Shown: positions 10,289 to 62,300 of the stretch, in pieces
Numbering within the stretch: position 1 is the first letter of the stretch
How the letters are laid out: each line of letters starts with the position of its first letter
Source of the DNA: Paecilomyces variotii
Lineage: Eukaryota
Assembly: GCA_004022145.1 (NCBI GenBank)
Contig: RCNU01000005.1
Length of the DNA: 64,000 bases
Reading direction: 5' to 3' (one strand)
Program-made: the position numbers and the translations under genes
The notes under the pieces: generated by a model
Told to the model about the DNA's origin: nothing
Database searches by the model: none
Seen by the model: only the letters and a program-made list of their open reading frames with translations

Positions 10289-12178
10289 AGCCCGCAAGAA
10301 GGGCCTGGTGACGGCCGGCGGGCAGGGCTGGCAGGGAGCACGTTGGTTGGTGCCCGTGCTGGCGGTGGATCGGCGGCACGCTAACCAAAGGCTTTCAGAG
10401 CGAGATCGCTTGGGCGGGTCCAGGCACGGGCATCTTATCAGTCCGTCCCCTCTCGAATGAGTTATTCACGCCTGTCATCTCGATATGTATGTACGGTAAT
10501 TAATCAATCAATCAACTAACAATGGCTTCATTCTATTATTCTATTATTCTTCCACCGGGATTTGGATTGGGATCTCTCTCTGGATCGACAGCAAAAGTTC
10601 TTCAAAACACTGCTCTTGACTCCTCTCAGCAGACACGGGTGGCTCCGTCTCGGCCGTCTCTCACCCCGCAACCGTGGGACGTCCCGCCATAACGTCTGAT
10701 TCCCTTAAGTAATCTATATATCACGTTTGTTCATCCCTCCAGGAAAGTTTCTATCTATATCCTCGACCGGTGTTTGAGACTCTTGAGACCCTCGCGCATT
10801 CGGATTCTGGTTGACACGTATTCTATAGCAGTTCTCATTGCATCCATTCGCGACTCGAGTACCTATCATCAGCAGAAAAATGGCTGGAAAACACTGCAAG
10901 ACCACATCTGCAGTAAGACCGCAGTGCATGTCGTAATTACATTTGTTGATGGAGCACCCCTTGACTCTGGACGCTTCTCATCCCGCGGCGTGCGTCGTCT
11001 GTTGGTCTGTTGGTTGTTCGTTCTCCCACGAGTCAGGCTGCAGAGACCCCCCTGGGAGTTCAATCTCGCTCCGAGAAGACGACATTGGGAAATAACCCAC
11101 CATCCTGCCATCCACGACATTCCTGCAGAGGATAATAATGGTACCTTTGGAGGACATTGGTGGACAGTAGTAGTTCCCACCGGCCAGGACCCTTCTTTCA
11201 TGCTGGTCATGGCTTGAACGGGGATCCTCGGACCGTCTGGAGCGAATCCGCACCCAGCTCCTGTCATGGCCGGCGACGATGGATGCCAGACCTTCCGTCG
11301 TCGTACCACTTCGCTATCCCCGTCCAGGCGGAGTAGGGCGAATTTCCGTTCGGGATCCTTTGGGACTCGCTTTCTCCCATGTGACGATGTGGTAGCCTCC
11401 GTGAAGGGTCAAAGATGCTGTGACCGGTTACCTCCGACGCACGTTACCTATTACTGCTCACATTAGTCCCCGTAGCTTCTTATTATTATCCTGAAGAAGA
11501 TCTTAGACAGCCAATTTCGCGCCAGTAAATTGGTAAATAATCAGTCAGACCGTCCTTCCATTGGGAAAGGGGCCATGCAGAAGTTGATATCCGTTTGCTG
11601 CTTAATAGATCCACCATCGAGAGAACAAAAATGCCTCGAATTCTGGTCATCTGGAGTAAAGGACGACCTGGGACTTGTTCATGCCTGCGTCTGACAAGAT
11701 GTCGCAGAGAAGTCCGTTATGAGAAAGCCTGAGGCATTCTTAGACATGTCTTAGTCAGCCTCACCAACGCGCCAAGGACAACTCCAGGGCGGAGAAGAGC
11801 GAAGAGCGATACGCCAACCAGAGAGGACAAACCAGCTGCTAGACTGCCTGCGTGTTGCTTGCGAGGTTGAAACATCTCTTTGAGATATCCTCGATCCTAT
11901 CCCTTTGCTCATCACCGTGGTATTCCAGAGGAGGGACGTGTCGAGGGCCGTACCACTCGTTGTCAGCCAGCACTTCCCCTCCTTCGTAGAGGCGCCGCAT
12001 CCCGACTCACCGATCGTGTCCCTGACATCGAATCCGCTCCCTTCGGCGCTCGTGAAGCCCTGCAGCTGAAACTGCCCGCGGTAGACACCCCGTTCGTTAT
12101 ATACGAGCTCAATGCGACATCCCGACTTCCGATCCATGTGCGGGAAGTGATACACGGGTCGATCCTAGATGGAGATCC

Positions 12179-23014: not shown

Positions 23015-23865
23015 TTACTTGCGGCCGTATCTCGCCTTACCGAAGGAGAAAGGGACGTAGCGGTACTTGATCATGTGCTGGATCTGTCGTCGCACTGTAA
23101 TGGAGATGTGTTAGTAAATATTCTTGGTTGGATATGGCGCTCTCGTCATTGGACAGATCGGAACAAAAAGCGCGCAGACCATGTATAGAGTAGAAAGGCA
23201 GAAGGACTTACTCGTCAGGAAAAAGAGAACGAGCCAGTAGACCACCAGGACTGGCCAGAACACGGGAATGTCAAAAATCTCGAACCACGAGCAAAGGAAT
23301 CCAATGGCGATGGCAACTGTGGCTTTGTGCCAGAACTTGAATTCTGGGAGGCGACGAATGAACGGACGGAATTCGTCATCGTTCTTGGTGGGAAGGCTGC
23401 TACCAGCATCGCCGTCCTCCAGGCCCTCATCCTGGGTGAGGGACGGGTCGAATCGCGGAGAGAGGAAGGCGAGGAAAAGGTTCAAGAGGTAAATACCGAG
23501 GGTGTATGCGACTGCATAACGTAGATTCAAATTAATATACCGGTCATCCAGAATCTCGGAGAGTATCAACTGCAAATCAAGACCTACCGATATACCACCC
23601 CTGCGCGAAGACAATGCGCAAGAAGAAAATGAACAGGAGTACTCCGGTGCCCACCCACCGATAAGTCGTGTAGGGTGTTGACGCGTCCAGATAAGCTTGG
23701 TATTGCTATTTTCAACTGAGTTAGCCCAATGAGCCATATGATTATCGATACTATCCATGAATCCATGCGAATCTATGGCCTTGAAGGATTGCTCACCCTA
23801 TGAAGTTTGGAGGTTTGTGCAGACACGGCCGTAAACGGCGACTGTTCCGGCTCTGGGACGTCCAT
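23015..23865 (-). CDS. RER1: Golgi-to-ER retrieval receptor Rer1, 4 exons
   Basis: YTLGIYLLNLFLAFLSPRFDP..DEFRPFIRRLPEFKFW..FDIPVFWPVLVVYW..RRQIQHMIKYRYVPFSFGKARYGRK*. Confidence 0.96.
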
Positions 23866-24170
23866 TGTGCAGCACGGGCGGAGTCTTGGGGCTATCGATC
23901 GGTCTCCGAATGAAATATAAATCTCCGGACCTTTCGGTTGCCAGCGCAGGACAAAGAAAAAGGGAAACGGAAGAAGGACACGGCGGGTTCGTCGGGATTG
24001 CGTTGTCGTGCTTCGAGATGGGAAAAGTGTCAAGTTGCTGGTTGGTGGCGCAGCAGCCTCATTTGTGGCTGGTTCATCTAGTATACCTTTTCAGTACTAG
24101 CGCATCCAGGAACCGAGCACGGGATGTGGCTGATGGGAGTATTCCACGTGACATGGCTGGCCGCGGTTTT

Positions 24171-24220
24171 CCTCGGGCCGGTCGGGGTTTGTTGCGGGGA
24201 GAAGTATGGGGGTTCCTCGG
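24171..24220. promoter_or_regulatory. Two CCTCGG (FarA/FarB-type fatty-acid response) elements upstream of echA
   Basis: CCTCGG at 24171-24176 and 24215-24220, 140-190 bp upstream of a beta-oxidation gene. Confidence 0.55.
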
Positions 24221-24360
24221 GCAGTTTATTTCTAATGATGTTTAATAGACAGCTTGTCGTCGTCCGTCCACCCGTCTGGCAATAGATAATATCTAGACCT
24301 CATTATTCCCTATTTTCTGTCTTCCTTACTATCAATTGTCTTGTTCAACAATTGAACGTC

Positions 24361-25432
24361 ATGTTTGCTAGGCGCTGTTCCCGGCTGGTCGCCACGAAGA
24401 CGGCCGTCCCTTTGACATCCTACCTTTCTAGAGTCGGCAGGCCGTACTCTTCTGCTGCACCAGCTTACGAGAACATCCTGACGGAAACACCAAGGCCAGG
24501 TGTTGGTCTCAGTAAGCATATAGAACCCATAGAAGCTTCTCTAGAAATGAATGTGACAGCAATTGAGTTGCTGACTCGAATTAAGTTACTCTCAACCGTC
24601 CCAAGGCTCTCAATGCCCTCTCCAGCTCCGTTTTCAAGGAGATCAACGATGCACTTTCCAAGTACGAGGAGGACAAGGATATTGGCGCCATCATCATAAC
24701 TGGCAGCGAGAAGGCCTTTGCTGGTATGCTCTCAAGAATATGCCCTTCGTATGCGGCGCATCTGCTAACCCTGGCGTGCTTCCAAAGCCGGTGCCGATAT
24801 CAAGGAAATGGCTCCTCTGACCTTCTCCTCTGCCTTCTCCAACAACTTCATCGCCCCCTGGTCTCATCTGGCAAACAACATTCGCAAGCCGGTTATCGCG
24901 GCTGTTTCTGGCTATGCTTTGGGTGGTGGCTGTGAGCTGGCCCTCATGTGTGACATTATCTACTGCACCTCGAAGGCCACATTTGGCCAGCCAGAGATCA
25001 AGCTGGGTATCATTCCCGGCGGTGGTGGCTCTCAGCGCCTGACACAAGCCGTGGGGAAGAGCAAGGCTATGGAGCTCATCCTGACGGGCAAGAACTTCAG
25101 CGGAAAGGAGGCCGGCGAATGGGGTGTCGCTGCTAAGGTGGTCGACGGTGGAAAGGACGAACTCCTGGAGGAAGCCCTTAAGACTGCCGAGACAATTGCC
25201 AGCTACAGCAAGGTCGCCGTTCTGGCTGCCAAGGAAGTAGTCAACAAGAGCCAGGAGCTCTCTCTCAAGGAAGGTGTTGAGTATGAGAGACGCATCTTCC
25301 ACGCTCTATTTGGCACCAGGGATCAGAAGATCGGTAAGTACATATGCCTTGACTTGGACAATCCGCGGCTAACGAGGCTTAGGAATGACGGCTTTCGCGG
25401 AGAAGAAGAAACCGGAATGGTCAAACGAATAG
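24361..25432 (+). CDS. echA: Mitochondrial enoyl-CoA hydratase, 4 exons
   Basis: Arg-rich presequence [75 protein letters not shown]; end [15 protein letters not shown]. Confidence 0.93.
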
Positions 25433-25673
25433 ACAAACTATGTCTTGACTGGGATCTGTATTGTAGCGCTACATAACAATGTGACGATTCTGATTTGCAT
25501 ACCTTCTCTTCAGGTCAGATCTTTAACGACTTGCCACTTCACACGATCGCCCAGGAGACACCGAAGGTCATAACCCATTGTTGTGCCTAATAATCGACCC
25601 ACGTGACAACAAAGAAGGGTCCCCGGTGTCCCCCATTCACCAGTCCCCATATAATTCCAAGCAAAGATCTCTC

Positions 25674-25897
25674 ATCGAACAGAGGAGCCCTGGTAGTGCA
25701 GTGGAGATAACTCTAGACTACCTGCATTGCACTACCAGAGCTCCTCTGTTCGATCCCCGGAGGGAACCCTCCAGTGACTCCCTCTGGGGATCAGGGGATC
25801 AGTAAAACCCTGCCCGGGCGGGGTTTTCGTAGCACCTTCAGACTGACTACCACCAGAAAACCAGTCTGAGAGTGTGAGCTTTTTGCCTTTTTTTTTT
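25674..25897 (+). ncRNA. Candidate Pol III-transcribed structured RNA (tRNA-derived / milRNA-like)
   Basis: 30-bp hairpin (25674-25703 with 25725-25754); A-box-like TAGTGCAGTGG (25694-25704); B-box-like GTTCGATCC (25748-25756); three more hairpins; T5 and T10 runs at 25880-25897. Confidence 0.5.
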
Positions 25898-26366
25898 CTG
25901 GGAGCTGACATTGTTTGGTGTAGCTCTCGATGTTTTTTTGAGTTTCCTATTTAGGAAGTTGTGATGCGGACAGTGATAACTGCTACTAGCGGACACCCTT
26001 TCCCCACAGTTATTATACTAATGCTACAATCTGACTCCAGTCCACATAGAAGACTGTACCAGCATATAATGATTTAACTGTAATAAGAGAGGCACAGTTA
26101 CGCTACTTCTTAAGTGCCTGTCGAGCATATTATGGTGCAAGAAAGGCATATACCTGGATCGAGACGCAATCCAGCCGTTATTAAAAGCTCATGTCACATT
26201 GATATTGATATTGGGGCTAATCCTTAGAAGAACAAAAAGAAATCAATCACAAAAGCGATCGTAATCCTCTCCTGCACACAATACTAATAATACAGTCAGG
26301 GACATCTTATCAGACCCCAAGGAAATTCCGATCCAAGCAAATTCACATCCACATTCCCTTTTTAAC

Positions 26367-26777
26367 TCAACGGCTCAGTCCCAGAGGGTTCTCAGTAGAC
26401 TGTTCGACCTTCCTATCTTGTCCTTCACCAAGACCGCTGATCGTGTCGTTGGCAGTTTGACCAACGCCCTTGGTCGTGTTTCCTAATCCTTGACTGGCGC
26501 CGCTGACTGTGTTTCCAAGGCCTTGAGTCGCATCTCCAGCCGTCTTGCCTAGGCCACTTACGATACCACCGACAGTGTTCGTGACGCCGCCGACGGTCTT
26601 GCCTAGAGTGTCGGTGATACCGCCTAGGACGGTGGCTGGATCGGTTAGTTTGGTAGTTCGAGGTATACAGGATTGGGAAAAGGGGGTGGCTCAAGGTATT
26701 GTTGTGATAGGAAAGGAGACGCGAATAATAATACACGTACGGTTCTGTTCGCTGTTGTCTCCGCTACCAGATGACAT
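26367..26777 (-). CDS. Small Gly/Thr-rich LEA/hydrophilin-like protein with 11-mer repeats, 2 exons (~100 aa)
   Basis: MSSGSGDNSEQN, then intron GTACGT..CTAAC..CAG, then PTVLGGITDTLGKTVGGVTNTVGGIVSGLGKTAGDATQGLGNTVSGASQGLGNTTKGVGQTANDTISGLGEGQDRKVEQSTENPLGLSR*. The spliced product is absent from the ORF track. Confidence 0.8.
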
Positions 26778-27999: not shown

Positions 28000-29950
28000 C
28001 TTCTGTCGCCATGGACCAGGTTCAACCTTCTCTTTGCTCGTTATATGAGTGGATCTCTCTGGAGTGCCATTCGTCCTGAAGAAATCTTGTCAACCAAGGA
28101 CTCGACCTAACGGATATGTGTGAACAGGTTGGGAGTGTCGTGATTTTGGTTTTATTGCCATATTTGCGAGAAGCATTCCGTGAAGCCATAACGTAGTTGC
28201 TACCATTTGTACTGCGTTTGTCAATGATGGCCAAAAGACGAGTCAACCTTGATCGTAGGAAGCCAATAACTCTGCAACTCCGCATGTTAACTTTGGAGTA
28301 TTTGATCTGACAGTAGCTGACCAAAACGACAGTGGAAAGTGACTCAGCTATATTTGGAAGTGATAATGCAATGTCCCTGAAACCAGCTGACGAGTATGTA
28401 AGCAAAGCAGCATATAAGCAGAAACAATCTAGTCAGTCAAGTATGCCAATCTTGAGTTTGTTATTGTCCCACAAAGTGGCGCCTGGATCGAGTTTGTAGG
28501 TAATACCGGTGGCTATTTCCGTAGGTTACAGAAACCGTGGCCGATAATGGATCACAGAAGCACCACACCTAAGTAAAAAGTTAGCACTGCTCCTTCTCCA
28601 TTAGTGCATATAGATCGATGACTCGGAATCGGAAATATGCCTGTGCCCAGGGTGGTTTGGCGGTACTTCGGACGGAAATGACAAGTATATTCGGTAGGAA
28701 TAATCCCAATCAGGCAGGCATGTTGATCGTATAGACTTCCGAGATCTGCCCCGATAGTGACTGCTTGAGATGTCTCTGTATCCTTTCTATGGCCTGTGAA
28801 TCGTAGTATCCTCGAGTGTGTCGCTCACTATAAGTTAGGAAGGCATGAACGCGGAATCTGGATCATAAGCATCGTTCTTTTGTCAGTGTTTATCTTCCTT
28901 TTGTTCATCCTCCTTCTATTGTATCCTCACGTAACAGAGCCGATCTGTATAGCCATCATCTTGTCTTTCTCTTTTATAATTTTGAAGACAGAATCTTGAC
29001 CAGCTTCTGGATAGCCCAAGGTATTAATAAACTCATGCACTCTCCATGAACTTCAAAAGAGCGGTCTCTCATCTTTATATCCACATACGATCAGCAGAAT
29101 CGACAGGCCAGACCATAGCAATGCTTTCGAGGTGAGAACGCTATGGATGCTGATACTTATGACTTTCTCCTAGGCTTTCTTGAAATCGGGTCAGTTTCTC
29201 GACGTTACGGCCACAAGTAACTTCAATATACCAACCATAATCACGGACACCGAGCAAAAGATACACTTGGATGCTCCTCCGGATCTTTTCGCAGGAAAGT
29301 CATCCTTTATACCCGTACTTCTTAATGACCACAACCTCACACGTTCCTCTATTAGCCAAAGATGCCGAGTCTTGAGACCTGCCAGTAAGGAACGACCCCC
29401 GGGTACTGCTCCGGACCTTGTCAAAACCACAGAGAGATATGAGTTTAGCGTTCACCTCTCCTTTCAGAAACGAGACATTCATCATTAAAGCAAGGATTTA
29501 CACTTTTGTTCCCGAAGAATCGTGCGAAGACATCCTCCTATGTGGATAAAAACAGGGTCTTGTGAGCTCAGCGTTTGCTGACTCCTTGTCCTCTTCAGAA
29601 ATTATGACCGATTCTATCATCAAGGCAAGGGATTCCCAGTTGTTACGATCTGAGGCCTTGGCCTGCGATGAGAGACTCTGGTTGTGATGCTCAGTCCATG
29701 TGGCTAACCCCCTGCCTTTCAGAAAATCTAGATATTCTCATCATCGAGGCAAGTGATTCCCTTGTTGCGACCTGAGGCTGCGGCCAGTGATGACAGACAC
29801 CGGGTATGATGCTCAGTCCATGTGTCTGACCTTTTGCAGGTGGTCCACACCTCTCGGAGATGAAACAAGTTAGTTGATCAATGTCTGAATTACCTGCCTT
29901 AGAGGGTTCAATAGCCTGCAGTGTATATAGGTTATATTTATCGCTTACCT
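28000..29950 (-). pseudogene. Probable decayed gene of unknown (possibly kinase-like) fungal family
   Basis: Protein-like fragments in changing frames (KLISLCGFDKVRSSTRGSFLTGRSQDSASL..EVVVIKKYGY; DPGATLWDNNKLKIGILD; YRDISS) interrupted by stops. No long ORF. Confidence 0.35.
29594..29826. repeat. Degenerate tandem direct repeat, ~121-124 bp unit, 2 copies
   Basis: TTCAGAAA..CATC(A/G)AGGCAAG.GATTCCC..TTGTT.CGA.CTGAGGC..GATGCTCAGTCCATGTG occurs starting at 29594 and again at 29718. Confidence 0.8.
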
Positions 29951-37398: not shown

Positions 37399-39791
37399 TC
37401 AGTAAGCCCACATGCACTTGTATGCCAGAAGCCGACTACCTAGCCGATCATACTCCAGCTGTCCTATCCAGCTGTCGTTTGTCCCGCTGAGTTTTCCGAA
37501 GACGCTGGCACCTTTCCAAACCACCACCTGCGGATCAAGCTCTCTCGGTGGCGTGCCAATCATGACTTCTTTGGCATATCCCGGTCGAAGAGTTTGTAGA
37601 CGTTCTTCCAAGAAGGGATGGAAACCCGAGATTAGGCTGCCTCCTCCAACCACCATGATTCCACCGAGGAAATCACGCATTTTGCGGTCATCTGAACGTG
37701 CACCGTGAGTGATGGAGGTGAATATGGCACTGTCCAGTGGAAAGATGGGGAGAACATCATCTCTTTCCTCGACCGCGGGCATACGGGGCGTTTGGGACGA
37801 AGTCTGGCCCTGTGCGCCGGGGATGGGAGTGTTTGCACCACCTGCCTGCGGCGTTCCCGTGACCTCTGGCCCTGGCGATCCTGCAACAGATGAACGGGGG
37901 GTCGCGTCGAGATCTTGCACTCTGACCAGTGCGTTTATTTGCTGTGAGCGGCTTGGGGTGGATTGCACATCCAACAGGCTCGGATGATTTGCATCTCCAT
38001 TAGTCTGGGAATTAGCGGATGGAGGAGCAATTGCCGCCAAGATCTCTGACTGTGCTGCCGACACAGGATCGTTGAGCGAGCCATCGTAGATATCACGGGA
38101 TGGAGATATCAGTTTCCTCCTGCCTTCCAGCTTCCGCGAATTATCGAATATCGTGGGTTGAAAGTAACCCATGGGTGCGAGAAGAACTTCATCGTATGCT
38201 TTGAAGGTGAATTTCCGGGTATCCTGACCAGAGATCCGCAGATGAAAGTCGAAGACCTGCACAGAGACATTCGCCTCGTACATCGTGCATACGTTTTTCT
38301 TCAGCTCTTCCGCCAGTAGGAAGTCGTATCTTCGTCTCAGGTCAATATCGGCGTAAGGGAAGTGATCGTATAGCATCATCTTGATGAACGTTTCAGTCAC
38401 GTCAGCGCCGCCGTACTTCAAGTTGACCCGTGAGTTCTCAATACACATCCCTTCCTCCACACAACATATCGATGTCTTCTGCGCCCCAATGTCCACAACA
38501 CACGTGGAGGTGAAGCCCGCGCCAAAGGAAGCTGCCAGGCTTTCCTGGATGAAGCACACACGAGCGAACGCGAACTCCCTCATAAGCATTTCCAAGATCT
38601 GTGTCACATACGACTTTTCATAGAGATCGGGAATGACAAACACACAGGAATATTGCGGCCACTCCTTTTTGCTGGTCAAACCCAGCTGAGTCTTGATCGC
38701 GTCTTCCAGGATCAACGAGATGTCCAGAAACAGGAGTCTTTTACTGTTGTAATCCTTCTCGTTGCACCACCCATATCGGATTGGCCAGAAAAGCTTGTAG
38801 CGAGGATTTGATGTATCAGGGATTCTCAAGGCTGCCTGTCCAGTAATGAACTCCGGAGCGGGGTCGGCAATTTCTGTCCACTCCACGCGCATCGGATCGT
38901 TGTGCTCTGAAATGGTCTCCGGAGGTGTCCGTCGATTGTAATTCACTACCATCTCCTTAGAATTTGGAAGCGTTCGTCTTTTATTCTGACGCATGTGCGT
39001 CTTGAGCTCCGAAGACATCGCCGTGTACTGGGAGGCGAACTGGAGGGCCGTCAGTGATTTATTCGACAACCGCAATATATCGCGATAGACGTACCTCTGT
39101 ACCAAACATCTTTTCAGGTTCCATCAGTGAGTCGTCATCCAGCTTCTGCCTCTTTGGGATTGGCTCTGTCCCCTCTTCCTCTGACTCGTTTTTGGTGGAT
39201 TTCCGTGCAATAACCATAGGGACGGTCTTGGGTAATGCATCGCTCGCTAATCCAATTCGCAGGTTCTGGCTCCCGACATGGATTACTATCACCTTTGAAC
39301 CCAGAGCTTCTGTAGCGGCCTCCTCAGCATCATCCATGGGAGTATCACCGTCTATTTCACCATCTCCTTCTAACTCTTCTGTCTTCCCCATTGCAAGAGC
39401 GCGATCCCGATCCTTTGCGCTTTTGGTCATTCGATTTCTCACTTCTTCATTTTGTAGTCGGAAGGCTAGCAGCTGATCATCCCTCTTGAGATAGTCTCTG
39501 CAGGCCAGAAACACGTCAGTAAACCAGTGTGGTCAATAACACTACCGTAGGCGTCCAAGCGCAGACAGAGACTGAGAAAGTGAGGTTGCATACGTATAGT
39601 AGTTTTTCTGGTTGATCGGAGGTATCTGGGGCCAGCTCGAGAGCTCCATGTTGTTATCTGTACGCTCCAGGCCTTCACAAGTATATTCGTCAGCGTCAAC
39701 TCCGCAAGTATTGTTGAGTAGCAATGCGCTTGATCGCGGATTACTTACCCTCATCCCGAAGGAGTGCCTTGCCGGATTTCTTCCCAACCAT
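37399..39791 (-). CDS. ARP8: INO80 complex actin-related protein Arp8, 4 exons
   Basis: MVGKKSGKALLRDEG..WPQIPPINQKNYYT..DYLKRDDQ..IVIHVGSQNLRIGLASDALP..CVVDIGAQKTSICCVEEG..WKGASVF. Confidence 0.95.
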
Positions 39792-53267: not shown

Positions 53268-53951
53268 AGGACTGCGGTCTTGGTTTCATTGCAAATGAGT
53301 GTCGGCCGTGCCGTGCTCCACTTTGGCCGGAGGACAATAATTGCCAGCCAGGCATATTAAGCGGTGACGAATTGACGTGTTCGGGGAATTGAGGATGTAT
53401 AGGATAGCCGTGAACTTGATATACTTTCTCTCGTACTCGATTATTATCGACTTAGCCGACAAGCGCGCTATTAATTCGCAACCTAGATCCAACCGGCTGA
53501 GTTGTTTGCTGCGGGGTGAAGTAGTGAAGCGGTCGCCGGGAGACCAAAGAAGAGAAGGCCAACACCAAAGTTCGACCCGCCTTGACTCTCTCGTCTACGG
53601 ATCTCTAGACCTTCTTCCTCCGACTCCTTCTGGTCCGGCTCCGTCTTTCTTCCTAGTCCTTGGGCGCTTGCACGTCTAGAGCTCGTTCCTTGATCTAACT
53701 ACTTCTTCCACTCTGCACTACAGCCAACCGCGGCTCGTTCAAGGCCGGCCGTCACTCTGTCTCGCGAGGTCTGAGCTAGCCCTGGCGTCAATTGGAGCAA
53801 AAGCCGGACTTCTCTCGACATCGCTATCTCCCTTTGTGTAACGTGTACAAGCGAAAGAAGCTGGAGCAGCACCGCAAAACTGCAACGTCCCCCATACTTT
53901 TTTCCGCAAAGCGTAGGGCCCTGAAGTCTCTCCACCCTTGAAAGCAGACGG

Positions 53952-59378: not shown

Positions 59379-62300
59379 ATGGCCACCTCGCAAAATGGCG
59401 TGAAACGGAAAAGAGGTCCAGAAGATGATGGGCAACTCAGTTCTCCTTCACCTTCGGCGGACGGCGCGTCAACGCCCGCGACTGAAATCGCGATCGCCAC
59501 AACTGTCCCGACAAAGACGGACGATGGCCCACCTTCTGACCAGGGGGTCAGGAAGGCAGTTCGTGGACGAGGGAAGCAAGGACGAATCTCATCCCCAAGC
59601 GTTGAGACCAGCACAAATGGCGTCGATAGTGACGGCCGACGCAGCAAATCTCGCTCTGCCACGCCTAAGCCAAAGCCAAAGCCAAAGCAAAAACGAACTC
59701 CTTCCGCTCCATGGCCAGAGACGTTCAAGCAGCTCTCAAAAACGCATCGAGCTTTGAACCTCGTCTATACATTCTGCTGCACGAGGAAACATCTCGCCAC
59801 GACATTTGATAAGATCAAAGGTGCTGTGGAGGCTCAGATGGGCGGACGAAATCTGACTGTGGAAGACATCGCACGGGTGAAGGTGCTTGTCCCACATGCA
59901 GTGAGGTTTGAGGTCGTGGATGAGGCTGCCTTGGAAGTTATGGGGGCTGGCGAAGGGGGGCGGGACGACCATAGGTTCATGAGAGGAAGCGGACCAAGTG
60001 CCATTGAAGACGGAGAGAATCTTTCAGTTATCAACATGGATGCGGATAAGGATAGAAACGAAGTGCTACTATTTGAATTCCTCGATGGGGATCTAAAAAG
60101 ACAGGTTCAGCATCCCAAGACCGGAGAACCGACCAAGCCCACCCGCAGGATGAGAGACGAAGATCTCAAAATGCCCGTCTACAGTCAGAAACAAATGCTC
60201 GGCCTCATTGAGAAACGAAATAAGAAGTTTATGGAGGCCATCGATGCGTTTCTGGTGAAGTGTGAAGATGATGGTGTAGATCCGGTCGAGAGACTGGAGA
60301 AGGATAAAGAAGCGCTCATCCCTTCGATGCCCAATAGTGGCACTACTACGCCAGCGGTTCCGCAATTTCCAGCTGAAATTCCGAAAGAACGCAAGTCAAT
60401 CTCTGAGATTATAGCTGAGATTAGGGAGATGGATTGGTATACGGCTCAGATTGTCCCAGATGGTCATAGAGTTTTCAATCCGCAACCACCGGTCTATGGA
60501 GATCTGAATTTTCAGCTTTCCCAGAACATTGTAAACGCCCTGTATAACACCAGAGGCATTACAAAGTTCTATTCTCATCAAGCAGAGGCTATCAATCATC
60601 TCTACGAAGGGAATAATGTCATTGTGTCTACGTCTACGAGCTCAGGGAAATCCCTGATATATCAGGTTCCGATGCTGCACGAATTGGAGAAAGATCCAAA
60701 CAGTAGGGGACTGTATATTTTCCCCACGAAAGCGCTAGCGCAAGATCAGAGACGCAGCATGAGAGATTTGCTGCAGTACATGGACGGTCTGCAGGAGACT
60801 ATTGTGGAGACATTCGACGGAGATACTCCCATGGATGATCGAAATATCATCCGGGACGAAGGTCGAATTATCTTCACGAACCCAGACATGTTACACATCA
60901 CTATCCTTCCGCAAGAAAGCTCCTGGAGAACCTTCCTCAAGAACTTGAAATTTGTCGTCGTGGACGAACTCCATGTCTACAACGGATTGTTTGGCTCCCA
61001 TGTTGCCTTCATTATGCGGCGGCTACGGAGGATATGCGCCGCCGTCGGAAATCGCCATGTTAGATTCATATCTTGCTCTGCTACCGTTGCAAATCCGGAA
61101 GAGCACATGAAAGCGATATTTGGAGTGGAAGACGTGAAGTTGATAGATTTTGACGGTTCTCCAGCAGGCCGCAAGGAATTCATCTGCTGGAATACCCCGT
61201 TTAAGGATCCTGGAGACCCAACTTCGGGACGAGGGGACAGTCTATCCGAGACAGCCAGGCTGTTTTGCCAACTCATACTGAGAGGAGTCAGAGTCATAGC
61301 TTTCTGCAGGATCAGGAAGCAGTGCGAGTTACTTCTCCAGAACGTGAGAAGCGAATTCCAGAGCCTGGAGAGACCGGAAATTGGAAAGCTTGTGATGGGG
61401 TATAGAGGCGGGTACAGCCCTCAAGACCGCCGGAAAATCGAGAAGGAAATGTTCGAAGGGAAACTCATGGGGATTGTTGCAACAAACGCTCTCGAACTGG
61501 GTGTTGATATTGGCTCTCTCGATGCCGTGATAACTCTCGGCTTTCCCTACTCAATTTCCAACCTCCGTCAGCAAAGCGGTCGAGCTGGTCGCCGTAACAA
61601 AGATTCCTTATCTGTCTTAGTGGGCGACAGTTTTCCCACAGATCAGCATTATATGAAGAATCCGGATGAGATCTTCACAAAACCGAACTGTGAACTGCAG
61701 ATTGATTTAACAAACGAGCTTATCCTAGAAGGACATATTCAGTGTGCTGCGTTCGAGATGCCTATCAGGCCGGAGGAGGATAGTCATTACTTTGGAGAAA
61801 ACCTCGGAGAATTCGCTTCAAGCAGACTCATCAAAGATGGCCTGGGGTTCTACCATTGCCACGAGAGGTTTCGTCCTCAGCCTTCTAGATATGTCTCGAT
61901 AAGAGATACAGAGGAAAACCACTTTGCCGTCATCGACACCACCAACAATCGCAACATTGTCCTTGAGGAAGTCGAAGAATCGCGCGCTTTGTTCACTATC
62001 TACGAAGGTGGCATCTTTATGCATCAGGGTGAGAAGTACATCGTGAAGGAGTTGAATCCCGAACGGCGTTTCGCGCGTGTTGTTCGTGTTCACGTCGACT
62101 GGAGTACACAACAGCGCGACTTCACAGATATAGATCCTATCGAAACCGAAGCCATCCGCTCCATCAACGATGCATCCCGCGCCTTCTTTGGTTCTATCCA
62201 GATTCATTCCGTGGTTTACGGGTTCTTCAAGATCGACAAGCGCGGCCGCGTGCTCGATGCCGTCGCCGTGGACAATCCCCCAATCGACATCCTCAGCAAG

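What the first reader, a model, noticed from the sequence alone, without database searches (positions are those of the whole stretch)
25674..25897. Unannotated highly structured element with Pol III A/B boxes and a T-run terminator between two convergent genes
Seen: four consecutive hairpins. H1 pairs 25674-25703 with 25725-25754; H2 is GATCCCCGGAGGGA/TCCCTCTGGGGATC (25752-25792); H3 is AAAACCCTGCC/GGCGGGGTTTT (25804-25827); H4 is TCAGACTG/CAGTCTGA (25838-25869). T5 and T10 runs follow. An A-box match (TAGTGCAGTGG) and a B-box match (GTTCGATCC) lie 54 nt apart, close to tRNA spacing, and the flanks resemble tRNA ends (CCCTGGTAGTG.. and ..GTTCGATCCCCGGAGGGA), but no cloverleaf forms. I cannot match it to U1-U6, SRP, RNase P/MRP or 5S motifs. 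Inference: a tRNA-derived ~200-nt Pol III ncRNA, a milRNA precursor or a SINE-like element.
Basis: partly seen in the sequence, partly recalled or inferred. Interest (0 to 1): 0.7.

Follow-up and report, generated by a model that had tools for sequence, protein, structure and literature searches.

The report
Dispersed fungal Pol III RNA family
This folded stretch looks like one of at least 14 scattered genes in a mould genome for small RNAs made by the tRNA polymerase; they share an undescribed, structurally conserved tail, part of which also appears in a SINE-like element of Aspergillus, but no transcript or function has been shown.

Summary
The hairpins, A box, B box and T-runs are real. BLAST saw one copy, but motif searches of the genome found 14 full-length relatives on 9 contigs, plus decayed pieces. 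A model built without this copy finds it at E=3e-20. All share a tRNA-like A/B-box head folded into a 5' hairpin, a variable middle and a conserved 3' module (H3, CGUAR, H4, UGUGAGC, oligo-U) with compensatory changes. Upstream TATA, CAAAG and CACGTG sites and some downstream flank are shared, and no target-site duplications were seen. This points to copying as DNA rather than current retroposition. A diverged relative keeps the element. No Rfam family matches. H3 plus CGUA also occurs in the published 5S-headed AfuSINE3-1a of Aspergillus fumigatus. Best reading: a Pol III RNA gene family of tRNA/SINE-like origin whose 3' module binds a protein (0.5). Rivals: a SINE (0.25) or a milRNA source (0.12). 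No discrete transcript was shown.

The parts
25600..25607 (+). CACGTGAC upstream site (bHLH-type; label recalled)
   Evidence: CACGTG-like site within 130 nt upstream of the A box in 10 of 13 members vs 1 of 30 tRNA loci; also upstream of both U1 genes, so not family-specific
25610..25639 (+). CAAAGAA and CCCATTCA upstream motifs
   Evidence: CAAAG 12 of 13 vs 3 of 30 tRNA loci; CCCATTCA 6 of 13 vs 0 of 30; this flank aligns with that of L143
25650..25666 (+). TATA element (TATAAT) and CAAAG at -44 and -33 from the A box
   Evidence: TATA-like word at -43 to -46 in 10 of 10 members examined; strict TATAWA 9 of 13 vs 1 of 30 tRNA loci (this copy misses the strict form); similar layout at the SRP RNA gene
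25674..25884 (+). Predicted Pol III transcript, about 210 nt; start inferred at about 25674-25678
   Evidence: A box 20 nt from the inferred start; leave-one-out HMM hit 25678-25884, E=2.9e-20; transcript not shown
25674..25754 (+). H1: 30-bp 5' hairpin holding the A box in its 5' arm and the B box in its 3' arm
   Evidence: 28 WC + 1 GU of 30; all 13 members form an H1 of 21-38 pairs; double changes beside the B box in L144 and L167
25694..25704 (+). A box TAGTGCAGTGG
   Evidence: the minus-strand mirror lacks the final G (sequence)
25748..25756 (+). B box GTTCGATCC
   Evidence: GTTCGA and the final C invariant in 13 of 13
25755..25803 (+). H2 and linker: variable middle domain
   Evidence: fold; differs in length and sequence among members, 190-264 nt overall
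25804..25827 (+). H3: conserved hairpin; this copy lacks the apical GCCAAAAGC loop of most members
   Evidence: alignment; covariation; its T-run is exactly 4 long in 13 of 13
25828..25879 (+). CGUAR linker, H4 (25832-25845/25862-25875) and UGUGAGC: the invariant 3' module
   Evidence: TTTTCGTA.CA and TGTGAGC invariant in 13 of 13 (these motifs were also used to find the members); 3 of 6 H4 base pairs show double changes
25880..25897 (+). Pol III terminator T5 and backup T10
   Evidence: T5-T9 directly after UGUGAGC in 13 of 13
25946..25955 (.). CArG-like site CC(W)6GG downstream (label recalled)
   Evidence: 4 of 13 members vs 1 of 30 tRNA loci; lies in flank shared with L148 and aligned in relative X21
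24586..25499 (+). Neighbour, 3' part: enoyl-CoA hydratase gene, poly(A) at 25499
   Evidence: Pfam ECH_1 E=8e-49; spliced contigs and poly(A)
26176..26776 (-). Neighbour: small Gly/Thr-rich protein gene, convergent
   Evidence: ORF, no Pfam, intron 26636-26740 and 3' ends

Best explanation
The element is one gene of a dispersed family of Pol III small RNAs of tRNA/SINE-like origin that now spreads and decays as DNA, flanks included. Shown by sequence: hybrid promoter layout, terminator, family membership, conserved fold, shared flanks. Inferred: TFIIIC binds the A and B boxes and TBP/TFIIIB the TATA; Pol III starts about 20 nt before the A box, reads through the T4 in H3 and stops in T5; La binds the 3' oligo-U (general Pol III knowledge). 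The RNA folds into a 5' hairpin, a variable middle and a fixed 3' module. Because the invariant letters sit in the H3/H4 junction and not in an exposed guide, the RNA most likely works as a protein-binding scaffold or decoy, not by pairing with targets. The facing CGUA/GAG strands fit a bulged-G (loop E / sarcin-ricin type) motif on paper (recalled, untested). The partner protein is unknown.
For: 14 full copies on 9 contigs; leave-one-out E from 9e-13 to 1e-55 for 13 of 13; L207, not in the model, scores E=1e-34. Covariation on a MAFFT alignment: 96.7% of 244 cells pair, 5 of 19 pairs with double changes, 0-1 of 500 shuffles, slid controls 33-52%. Folding z -2.5 to -9.8 in 13 of 13. Upstream flanks alike in 26 of 78 pairs, vs 1 of 78 further upstream and 0 of 435 tRNA pairs. 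Homology runs past both RNA ends, e.g. L142/L147 from -225 to +42. In relative X21, 25682-25981 aligns (38 substitutions, 28 gap letters) while the next 190 nt do not.
Against: No discrete transcript: X18 has no listed piece on the element, the X17 contig (depth 2.7) starts 107 nt upstream of the inferred start, the X24 contig crosses the terminator, and the X21 contig joins the element to the neighbour's mRNA. Members were found by the motifs that look invariant, so that invariance is partly circular. Covariation among related paralogs can beat shuffles without function. Partial copies (L168, L172, L174) and the AfuSINE3-1a link fit a retroposon. Absent behind echA in 4 of 4 distant fungal loci. 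No partner protein identified.
Confidence: 0.5

Rival explanations
1. A low-copy tRNA-headed SINE. The 3' module is a SINE central domain or the LINE-recognition site, and structure is kept because only folded RNAs retropose.
For: Head-body layout with A/B boxes. H3+CGUA occurs in AfuSINE3-1a (regex 0 hits in 549,859 non-member bases). Different heads on one domain fit SINE domains such as CORE (PMC3531059 passages; head-swapping itself recalled). Three 3'-only or decayed copies.
Against: 14 copies vs SINEBase's 100; no simple-repeat or A tail; no target-site duplication in 10 of 10 examined; untranscribed flanks shared; no RT or endonuclease domain in 43 frames near copies; orthologous copy kept in a relative.
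Confidence: 0.25
2. A Neurospora-type Pol III milRNA gene: Dicer cuts H1 into 20-24-nt guides.
For: H1 here is a near-perfect 30-bp stem at the 5' end. Neurospora milR-1 to -4 are Pol III products with T-runs, and TATA-like and A/B elements are marked for them (PMC3547838).
Against: The other 12 members have bulged H1 stems (7-18 nt bulge-free). The best-kept part is the 3' module, not an H1 arm. This copy's motifs are absent from the fungal milRNA compendium supplements, apart from one B-box word in a tRNA-annotated locus. May still hold for this copy alone.
Confidence: 0.12
3. The DNA is what matters (TFIIIC/Pol III-bound boundary between genes), or the hairpins act in a long 3' UTR of the minus-strand neighbour; the RNA is incidental.
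For: X21 contig runs from the neighbour's mRNA into the element; conserved DNA-type sites on both flanks.
Against: Compensatory changes in H3/H4; full-consensus boxes and terminator only on +; neighbours differ from copy to copy; main neighbour mRNAs end outside.
Confidence: 0.09
4. A known RNA class too diverged for Rfam (7SK-like LARP7/MePCE RNA, vault, Y/sbRNA, or one of the unclassified Afu RNAs).
For: 3' hairpin directly before oligo-U resembles LARP7 substrates (PMC8917221 passages). Several Afu RNAs of 220-350 nt remain unclassified (PMC2377427 passages).
Against: No Rfam match at gathering score or E<=0.05; SRP, MRP, U1 and a weak RNase P match lie elsewhere; Pof8-like scored 0 in the 5 Eurotiales rows seen; no 5'-3' terminal stem.
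Confidence: 0.04

Closest known systems
AfuSINE3-1a (5S-headed SINE-like element, Aspergillus fumigatus; PMC5063351, Table 1 and results read; related there to SINE3-1_AO)
   Same: Its body holds the family's H3 pattern in order (TGCC, CCAAA-GCA, GGCGGG, TTTTCGTA); by eye a helix follows CGUA and closes shortly before a T-run; low copy (about 5), transcribed by RT-PCR.
   Different: 5S head with type 1 promoter instead of A/B boxes; no CGTAGCA/CGTAACA or TGTGAGC; the table sequence begins and ends with the same 7 letters (a possible duplication).
AfuSINE2 tRNA-related elements (same paper)
   Same: tRNA-like head without cloverleaf, low copy, gene-rich regions.
   Different: 0 of 5 longer family motifs occur in the paper's text or table; only TTTTCGTA appears, in 2 of the 8 AfuSINE2 sequences. 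They have degenerate boxes and reported duplications and are unrelated to each other.
Neurospora milR-1 to milR-4 (PMC3547838, parts 1-2 of 5 read)
   Same: Intergenic Pol III hairpin RNAs (pri-milR-1 about 170 nt) with T-run terminators and TATA-like elements.
   Different: Not described as a family with a shared 3' module; milR-1 lacks A/B boxes; small-RNA products untested here; their sequences are in figures I could not see.
Plasmodium RUF6 GC-rich ncRNA family (PMC9670795, passages read)
   Same: 15-member dispersed Pol III family with A and B boxes acting through bound proteins: a model for how such a family can work.
   Different: No homology claimed; RUF6 is tied to var genes, while these copies have mixed neighbours.
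SRP RNA gene of the same genome (G000:C86)
   Same: TATA about 41 nt and ACAAAG about 35 nt before the A box, B box, T-run.
   Different: No sequence or model match; single copy.

Membership tests
SINE (SINEBase definition, PMC3531059) | Short (<1 kb), interspersed, non-tandem repeat | tested here: met
   190-264 nt, 14 copies on 9 contigs
SINE (SINEBase definition, PMC3531059) | At least 100 copies (exception for repeat-poor genomes) | tested here: not met
   14 full, 3 partial, 2 doubtful; lower bound from exact patterns
SINE (SINEBase definition, PMC3531059) | At least 60% identity to a tRNA over 60 nt | tested here: inconclusive
   53-58% to the best of 32 tRNA sequences (of 61 matches); above a boxes-kept null at p<=0.03 in 6 of 13, uncorrected
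SINE (SINEBase definition, PMC3531059) | 3' tail of simple repeats | tested here: not met
   T5-T9 terminator, then unrelated T/GT-rich flank; ATTT repeat after one member only
SINE | Target-site duplications | tested here: not met
   Longest shared flank words 4-5 nt near the ends in 10 of 10 examined, no formal control; old duplications could have decayed
SINE | LINE-derived 3' region or shared central domain | tested here: inconclusive
   No RT domain in 43 of 73 frames scanned near copies; LINE 3' ends not searched directly; H3 shared with AfuSINE3-1a
fungal milRNA gene | Dicer-size hairpin in a Pol III unit | tested here: met
   H1 30 bp in this copy only
fungal milRNA gene | Precise 20-24-nt reads from one arm, Dicer-dependent, Argonaute-bound | not testable with these tools
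   Only assembled contigs were laid
tRNA | Cloverleaf with anticodon arm | tested here: not met
   ARAGORN 0; no call over the element with introns allowed and a lowered threshold; Rfam
Rfam families incl. SRP, RNase P/MRP, U snRNAs, Afu sRNAs | Score at the family's gathering threshold | tested here: not met
   0 in window; best sub-threshold 27.8 bits vs 94; 0 at E<=0.05 in 6 further members
7SK-type RNA | LARP7/Pof8 partner present | not tested
   Not searched in G000; literature rows for 5 Eurotiales show Pof8-like 0
7SK-type RNA | Conserved GAUC/GAUC stem (recalled) | tested here: not met
   No invariant GAUC in alignment A4
Pol III type 2 gene | A box, B box, oligo-T terminator, no internal T5 | tested here: met
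   13 of 13; L207 has a degenerate A box
Pol III type 2 gene | Pol III/TFIIIC occupancy and transcript with defined ends | not testable with these tools
   needs ChIP, Northern, RACE

The most novel reading that the evidence does not exclude
An unrecognised class of Eurotiales Pol III RNAs defined by a portable 3' protein-binding module (H3-CGUA-H4-oligo-U) that has been joined to either tRNA or 5S promoter heads. Elements filed as Aspergillus SINE3 would then be host RNA genes of the same class, and the class would form a fungal RNP with a cellular job.
Probability: 0.25. Interest if true: 0.8.

Novelty: new variant of a known kind. Interest (0 to 1): 0.55.

Why it matters
The Pol III output of filamentous fungi is poorly charted beyond tRNA, 5S, U6, SRP and a few milRNAs (own knowledge). 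A 14-gene family with covarying structure and its own upstream promoter, missed by BLAST and Rfam, gives a defined motif and model to search for across moulds. It also makes testable whether fungal SINE-like units are parasites or domesticated RNA genes. If it is only a SINE, it is still a rare tRNA-headed one sharing a domain with a 5S-headed one.

Tried and rejected
BLAST of the element on its own genome found only itself; misleading, since paralogs are 51-61% identical. Syntenic search with echA in metagenome contigs: 4 of 80 loci had a Rer1 neighbour, and none of the 80 held the element (4 loci also by models); at about 70% protein identity these are distant. Viral contigs: 2, 9, 0 and 0 pattern hits; the first 2 lack A/B boxes, the 9 gave no model match at E<=1. 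Prokaryote genomes: 1 AT-rich hit without stems. All taken as chance. U1 link: a 12-nt identity with U1 stem-loop 2 is locked in H1 (14 kcal/mol to open), 1 of 303 tiles also reaches 12, and paralogs lack it. G after the terminator (16 of 16) is uninformative: 25 of 30 tRNA loci have it. 7SK/LARP7 idea weakened. MITE rejected: no terminal repeats round the unit, strand-specific boxes. Runs X17 and X18 look poly(A)-selected, so lack of cover proves nothing; 4 of 24 listed runs were laid. Look-ups of earlier findings by sequence, by relatives and by words across genomes returned nothing. A whole-genome scan with the family model was not possible, so the census is a lower bound.

Full report
Observation. 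The described features are present: H1 with 28 Watson-Crick pairs, 1 G-U and 1 mismatch of 30; H2, H3 and H4 arms at the stated places; A box 25694-25704; B box 25748-25756; T5 25880-25884; T10 25888-25897. The region folds at z = -8.3 and is the most stable of 580 tiles in the window. Two corrections: H1 and H2 overlap by 3 nt, and H4 is 14 bp long. Both boxes sit inside H1, but their last consensus letters lie outside it, so only the + strand has complete boxes (sequence). The left neighbour is an enoyl-CoA hydratase gene with poly(A) at 25499; the right neighbour's mRNA ends near 26176-26232. Earlier notes call the organism a Paecilomyces mould (not checked by me); introns and gene content fit a filamentous ascomycete.

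Not a catalogued RNA. Rfam gives 0 matches at gathering score in the window. The 24 matches at E<=10 near the element are generic and far below cut-off. ARAGORN finds no tRNA over it. SRP, MRP, two U1 genes and a weak RNase P match lie elsewhere in the genome.

A family. BLAST found one copy. An A-box/B-box pattern found a second unit, which defined shared 3' motifs. Pattern CGTAGCA..TGTGAGC gave 12 hits (control 4), 8 of them full units. An H3 pattern gave 10 hits at 9 loci (control 0), all units, 2 new. TGTGAGCTTTTT gave 20 hits (control 2): 13 full units, 1 local tandem duplicate, 3 partial copies and 3 unrelated. A linker pattern gave 16 hits (control 5): 12 known, 1 new full unit with a degenerate A box (L207), 2 doubtful and 1 unrelated. 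Total: 14 full copies on 9 contigs, a lower bound. A profile built without this copy finds it as the only hit in the window at E=2.9e-20, and each of 13 members is recovered when left out. This copy is 51-61% identical to the others; two subfamilies are 84-94% identical within.

Anatomy. Each of 13 aligned members has a 5' hairpin holding the A box and closing at the B box, a variable middle, then H3, TTTTCGTA(G/A)CA, H4, TGTGAGC and T5-T9. All fold better than shuffles (z -2.5 to -9.8, 60 shuffles each). On the MAFFT alignment, H3 and the H4 base pair in 96.7% of 244 cells; 5 of 19 pairs have double changes; 0-1 of 500 shuffles reach these values and slid structures give 33-52%. Relatedness can inflate this test, and the motifs used to find members are invariant by construction. 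The H3 T-run is exactly four long in 13 of 13, and no T5 occurs inside, as expected if Pol III must read through. This copy is an outlier: it lacks the apical GCCAAAAGC loop of H3 and alone has a near-perfect H1.

Promoter and mode of spread. Upstream, CAAAG occurs in 12 of 13 members, a CACGTG-like site in 10, strict TATA in 9 and CCCATTCA in 6, against 3, 1, 1 and 0 of 30 tRNA loci. The SRP gene has a similar TATA/ACAAAG layout. The 95 nt before the start are alike in 26 of 78 member pairs, against 1 of 78 further upstream and 0 of 435 tRNA pairs. Local alignments run past the RNA on both sides with variable ends: L142/L147 from -225 to +42, this copy with L143 to -77 and with L148 to +91. 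No target-site duplication was seen in the 10 members examined. No reverse transcriptase or endonuclease domain was found in 43 frames within 1.5 kb of 19 loci; I scanned 43 of the 73 frames listed, leaving out mostly overlapping ones. A Pol III transcript cannot carry untranscribed flanks, so copying as DNA, or strong selection on the promoter, is inferred. L172 differs from its subfamily mostly by C-to-T and G-to-A changes, by eye, which suggests RIP-type decay.

Relatives and transcription. Four of 24 listed runs were laid, all as contigs. X21 and X24 are spliced, so RNA, and come from a relative with 38 substitutions in 545 nt of echA. In X21, 25682-25981 aligns with 38 substitutions and 28 gap letters, similar to the neighbour's coding sequence (36 in 265), while the next 190 nt do not align. 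Of 6 listed deletions in the element, 4 fall in unpaired positions and 2 at helix ends (unpaired fraction 0.36); 22 indel rows were not shown. A loose end in X24 gives an H4 5' arm that pairs better with the window's 3' arm; the relative's own 3' arm was not visible. Against a discrete RNA: the X21 contig continues into the neighbour's mRNA, X17 covers 25567-25819 at depth 2.7, X24 crosses the terminator and X18 shows nothing on the element. The X21 contig begins 8 nt inside the inferred start, a weak hint only. The element is absent behind echA in 4 of 4 distant fungal loci.

Link to known elements. Earlier notes on other copies named AfuSINE2 as closest. In PMC5063351 (abstract, introduction, parts 2-4 of 6, passages and S1 Table read; figures not seen) five longer family motifs have 0 occurrences and only TTTTCGTA appears, so AfuSINE2 is not a homolog by this test. 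But AfuSINE3-1a, a 5S-headed element, carries TGCC, CCAAA-GCA, GGCGGG and TTTTCGTA in the family's order and spacing. A regular expression for this, loosened after seeing the paper, has 0 hits in 549,859 non-member bases, and either half arises in 0.00025 of random 4-kb sequences. After CGTA the sequences diverge, though a helix closing before a T-run is visible by eye. I could not score it with the model. By SINEBase criteria (PMC3531059, passages) the family is short and interspersed but fails copy number and tail and falls just short on tRNA identity (53-58%). It is built like a SINE and may descend from one; membership is not met.

Mechanism. Shown: promoter layout, terminator, family, covarying fold, shared flanks. 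Inferred: Pol III transcription of a 190-265-nt RNA ending in oligo-U, bound by La (general knowledge), with the H3-CGUAR-H4-UGAGC junction as a protein site. The facing strands fit a bulged-G loop on paper (recalled). I put 0.5 on a selected protein-binding RNA family, 0.25 on a SINE, 0.12 on milRNA production, 0.09 on a DNA or 3' UTR role and 0.04 on a known class. Neurospora milR genes (PMC3547838, parts 1-2 of 5) and Plasmodium RUF6 (PMC9670795, outline and passages) are working models, not homologs. A 7SK-like reading is weakened by Pof8-like scores of 0 in the 5 Eurotiales rows seen (PMC8917221, passages, section 11, supplement rows).

Novelty. Ten literature searches found no description of this family; they cover open-licence papers and bioRxiv only. 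Also seen: PMC9757828 (abstract, section 10, 9 supplements searched), PMC12871901 (abstract), PMC2377427 (passages; supplements unreadable), PMC3890542 (listing, 4 supplements searched, 0 hits), PMC6416283 (passages) and bioRxiv 10.64898/2026.05.29.728754 (passage search; supplements closed). The unread Afu supplements, the lncRNA atlas tables and Repbase could hold relatives. Three earlier notes of this scan describe what appear to be other copies; they are not independent evidence. Verdict: a new variant of tRNA-derived, SINE-like Pol III RNA, interest 0.55.

Noticed in passing
window 39329-39352 and 60816-60839: 24-bp inverted pair, 23 of 24 complementary, 21.5 kb apart.
   Followed up: no
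window 53522-53578 (+) and near 11316 (-): Two more strict A-box/B-box pairs, 48 and 97 nt apart, with no nearby T5, tRNA or Rfam match; probably chance.
   Followed up: partly
window 26367-26776 (-): Small spliced Gly/Thr-rich repeat protein without Pfam match, covered by many deep contigs in X18.
   Followed up: no
window 25721-25732: 12-nt identity with stem-loop 2 of this genome's U1 RNA, including AUUGCAC (U1A site, recalled); buried in H1 and absent from paralogs.
   Followed up: yes
window 25946-25955; L144, L146, L148 downstream flanks: CArG-like site 27-61 nt after the terminator in 4 of 13 members vs 1 of 30 tRNA loci.
   Followed up: partly
L168:1471-1512 (G000:C5): A 3' fragment of the family supplies the last codons and stop of a 444-aa frame without Pfam match.
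   Followed up: partly
G000:C45:10411-10449 (L175/L176): The 3' end of member L144 is duplicated in tandem (27-nt unit), giving a second terminator.
   Followed up: no
L200 (G000:C12) and L205 (G000:C67): Two doubtful, decayed copies that share about 21 nt around the linker with each other.
   Followed up: partly
L131 (G000:C5:7367-7455): ARAGORN calls an intron-containing tRNA with a TTA (stop) anticodon; intron placement is uncertain.
   Followed up: no
window 23114-25499; L003-L006: A Rer1 gene lies upstream of echA here and in 4 of 4 distant fungal loci.
   Followed up: partly
window 29640-29709 and 29762-29831: 70-nt direct repeat, 80% identical.
   Followed up: no
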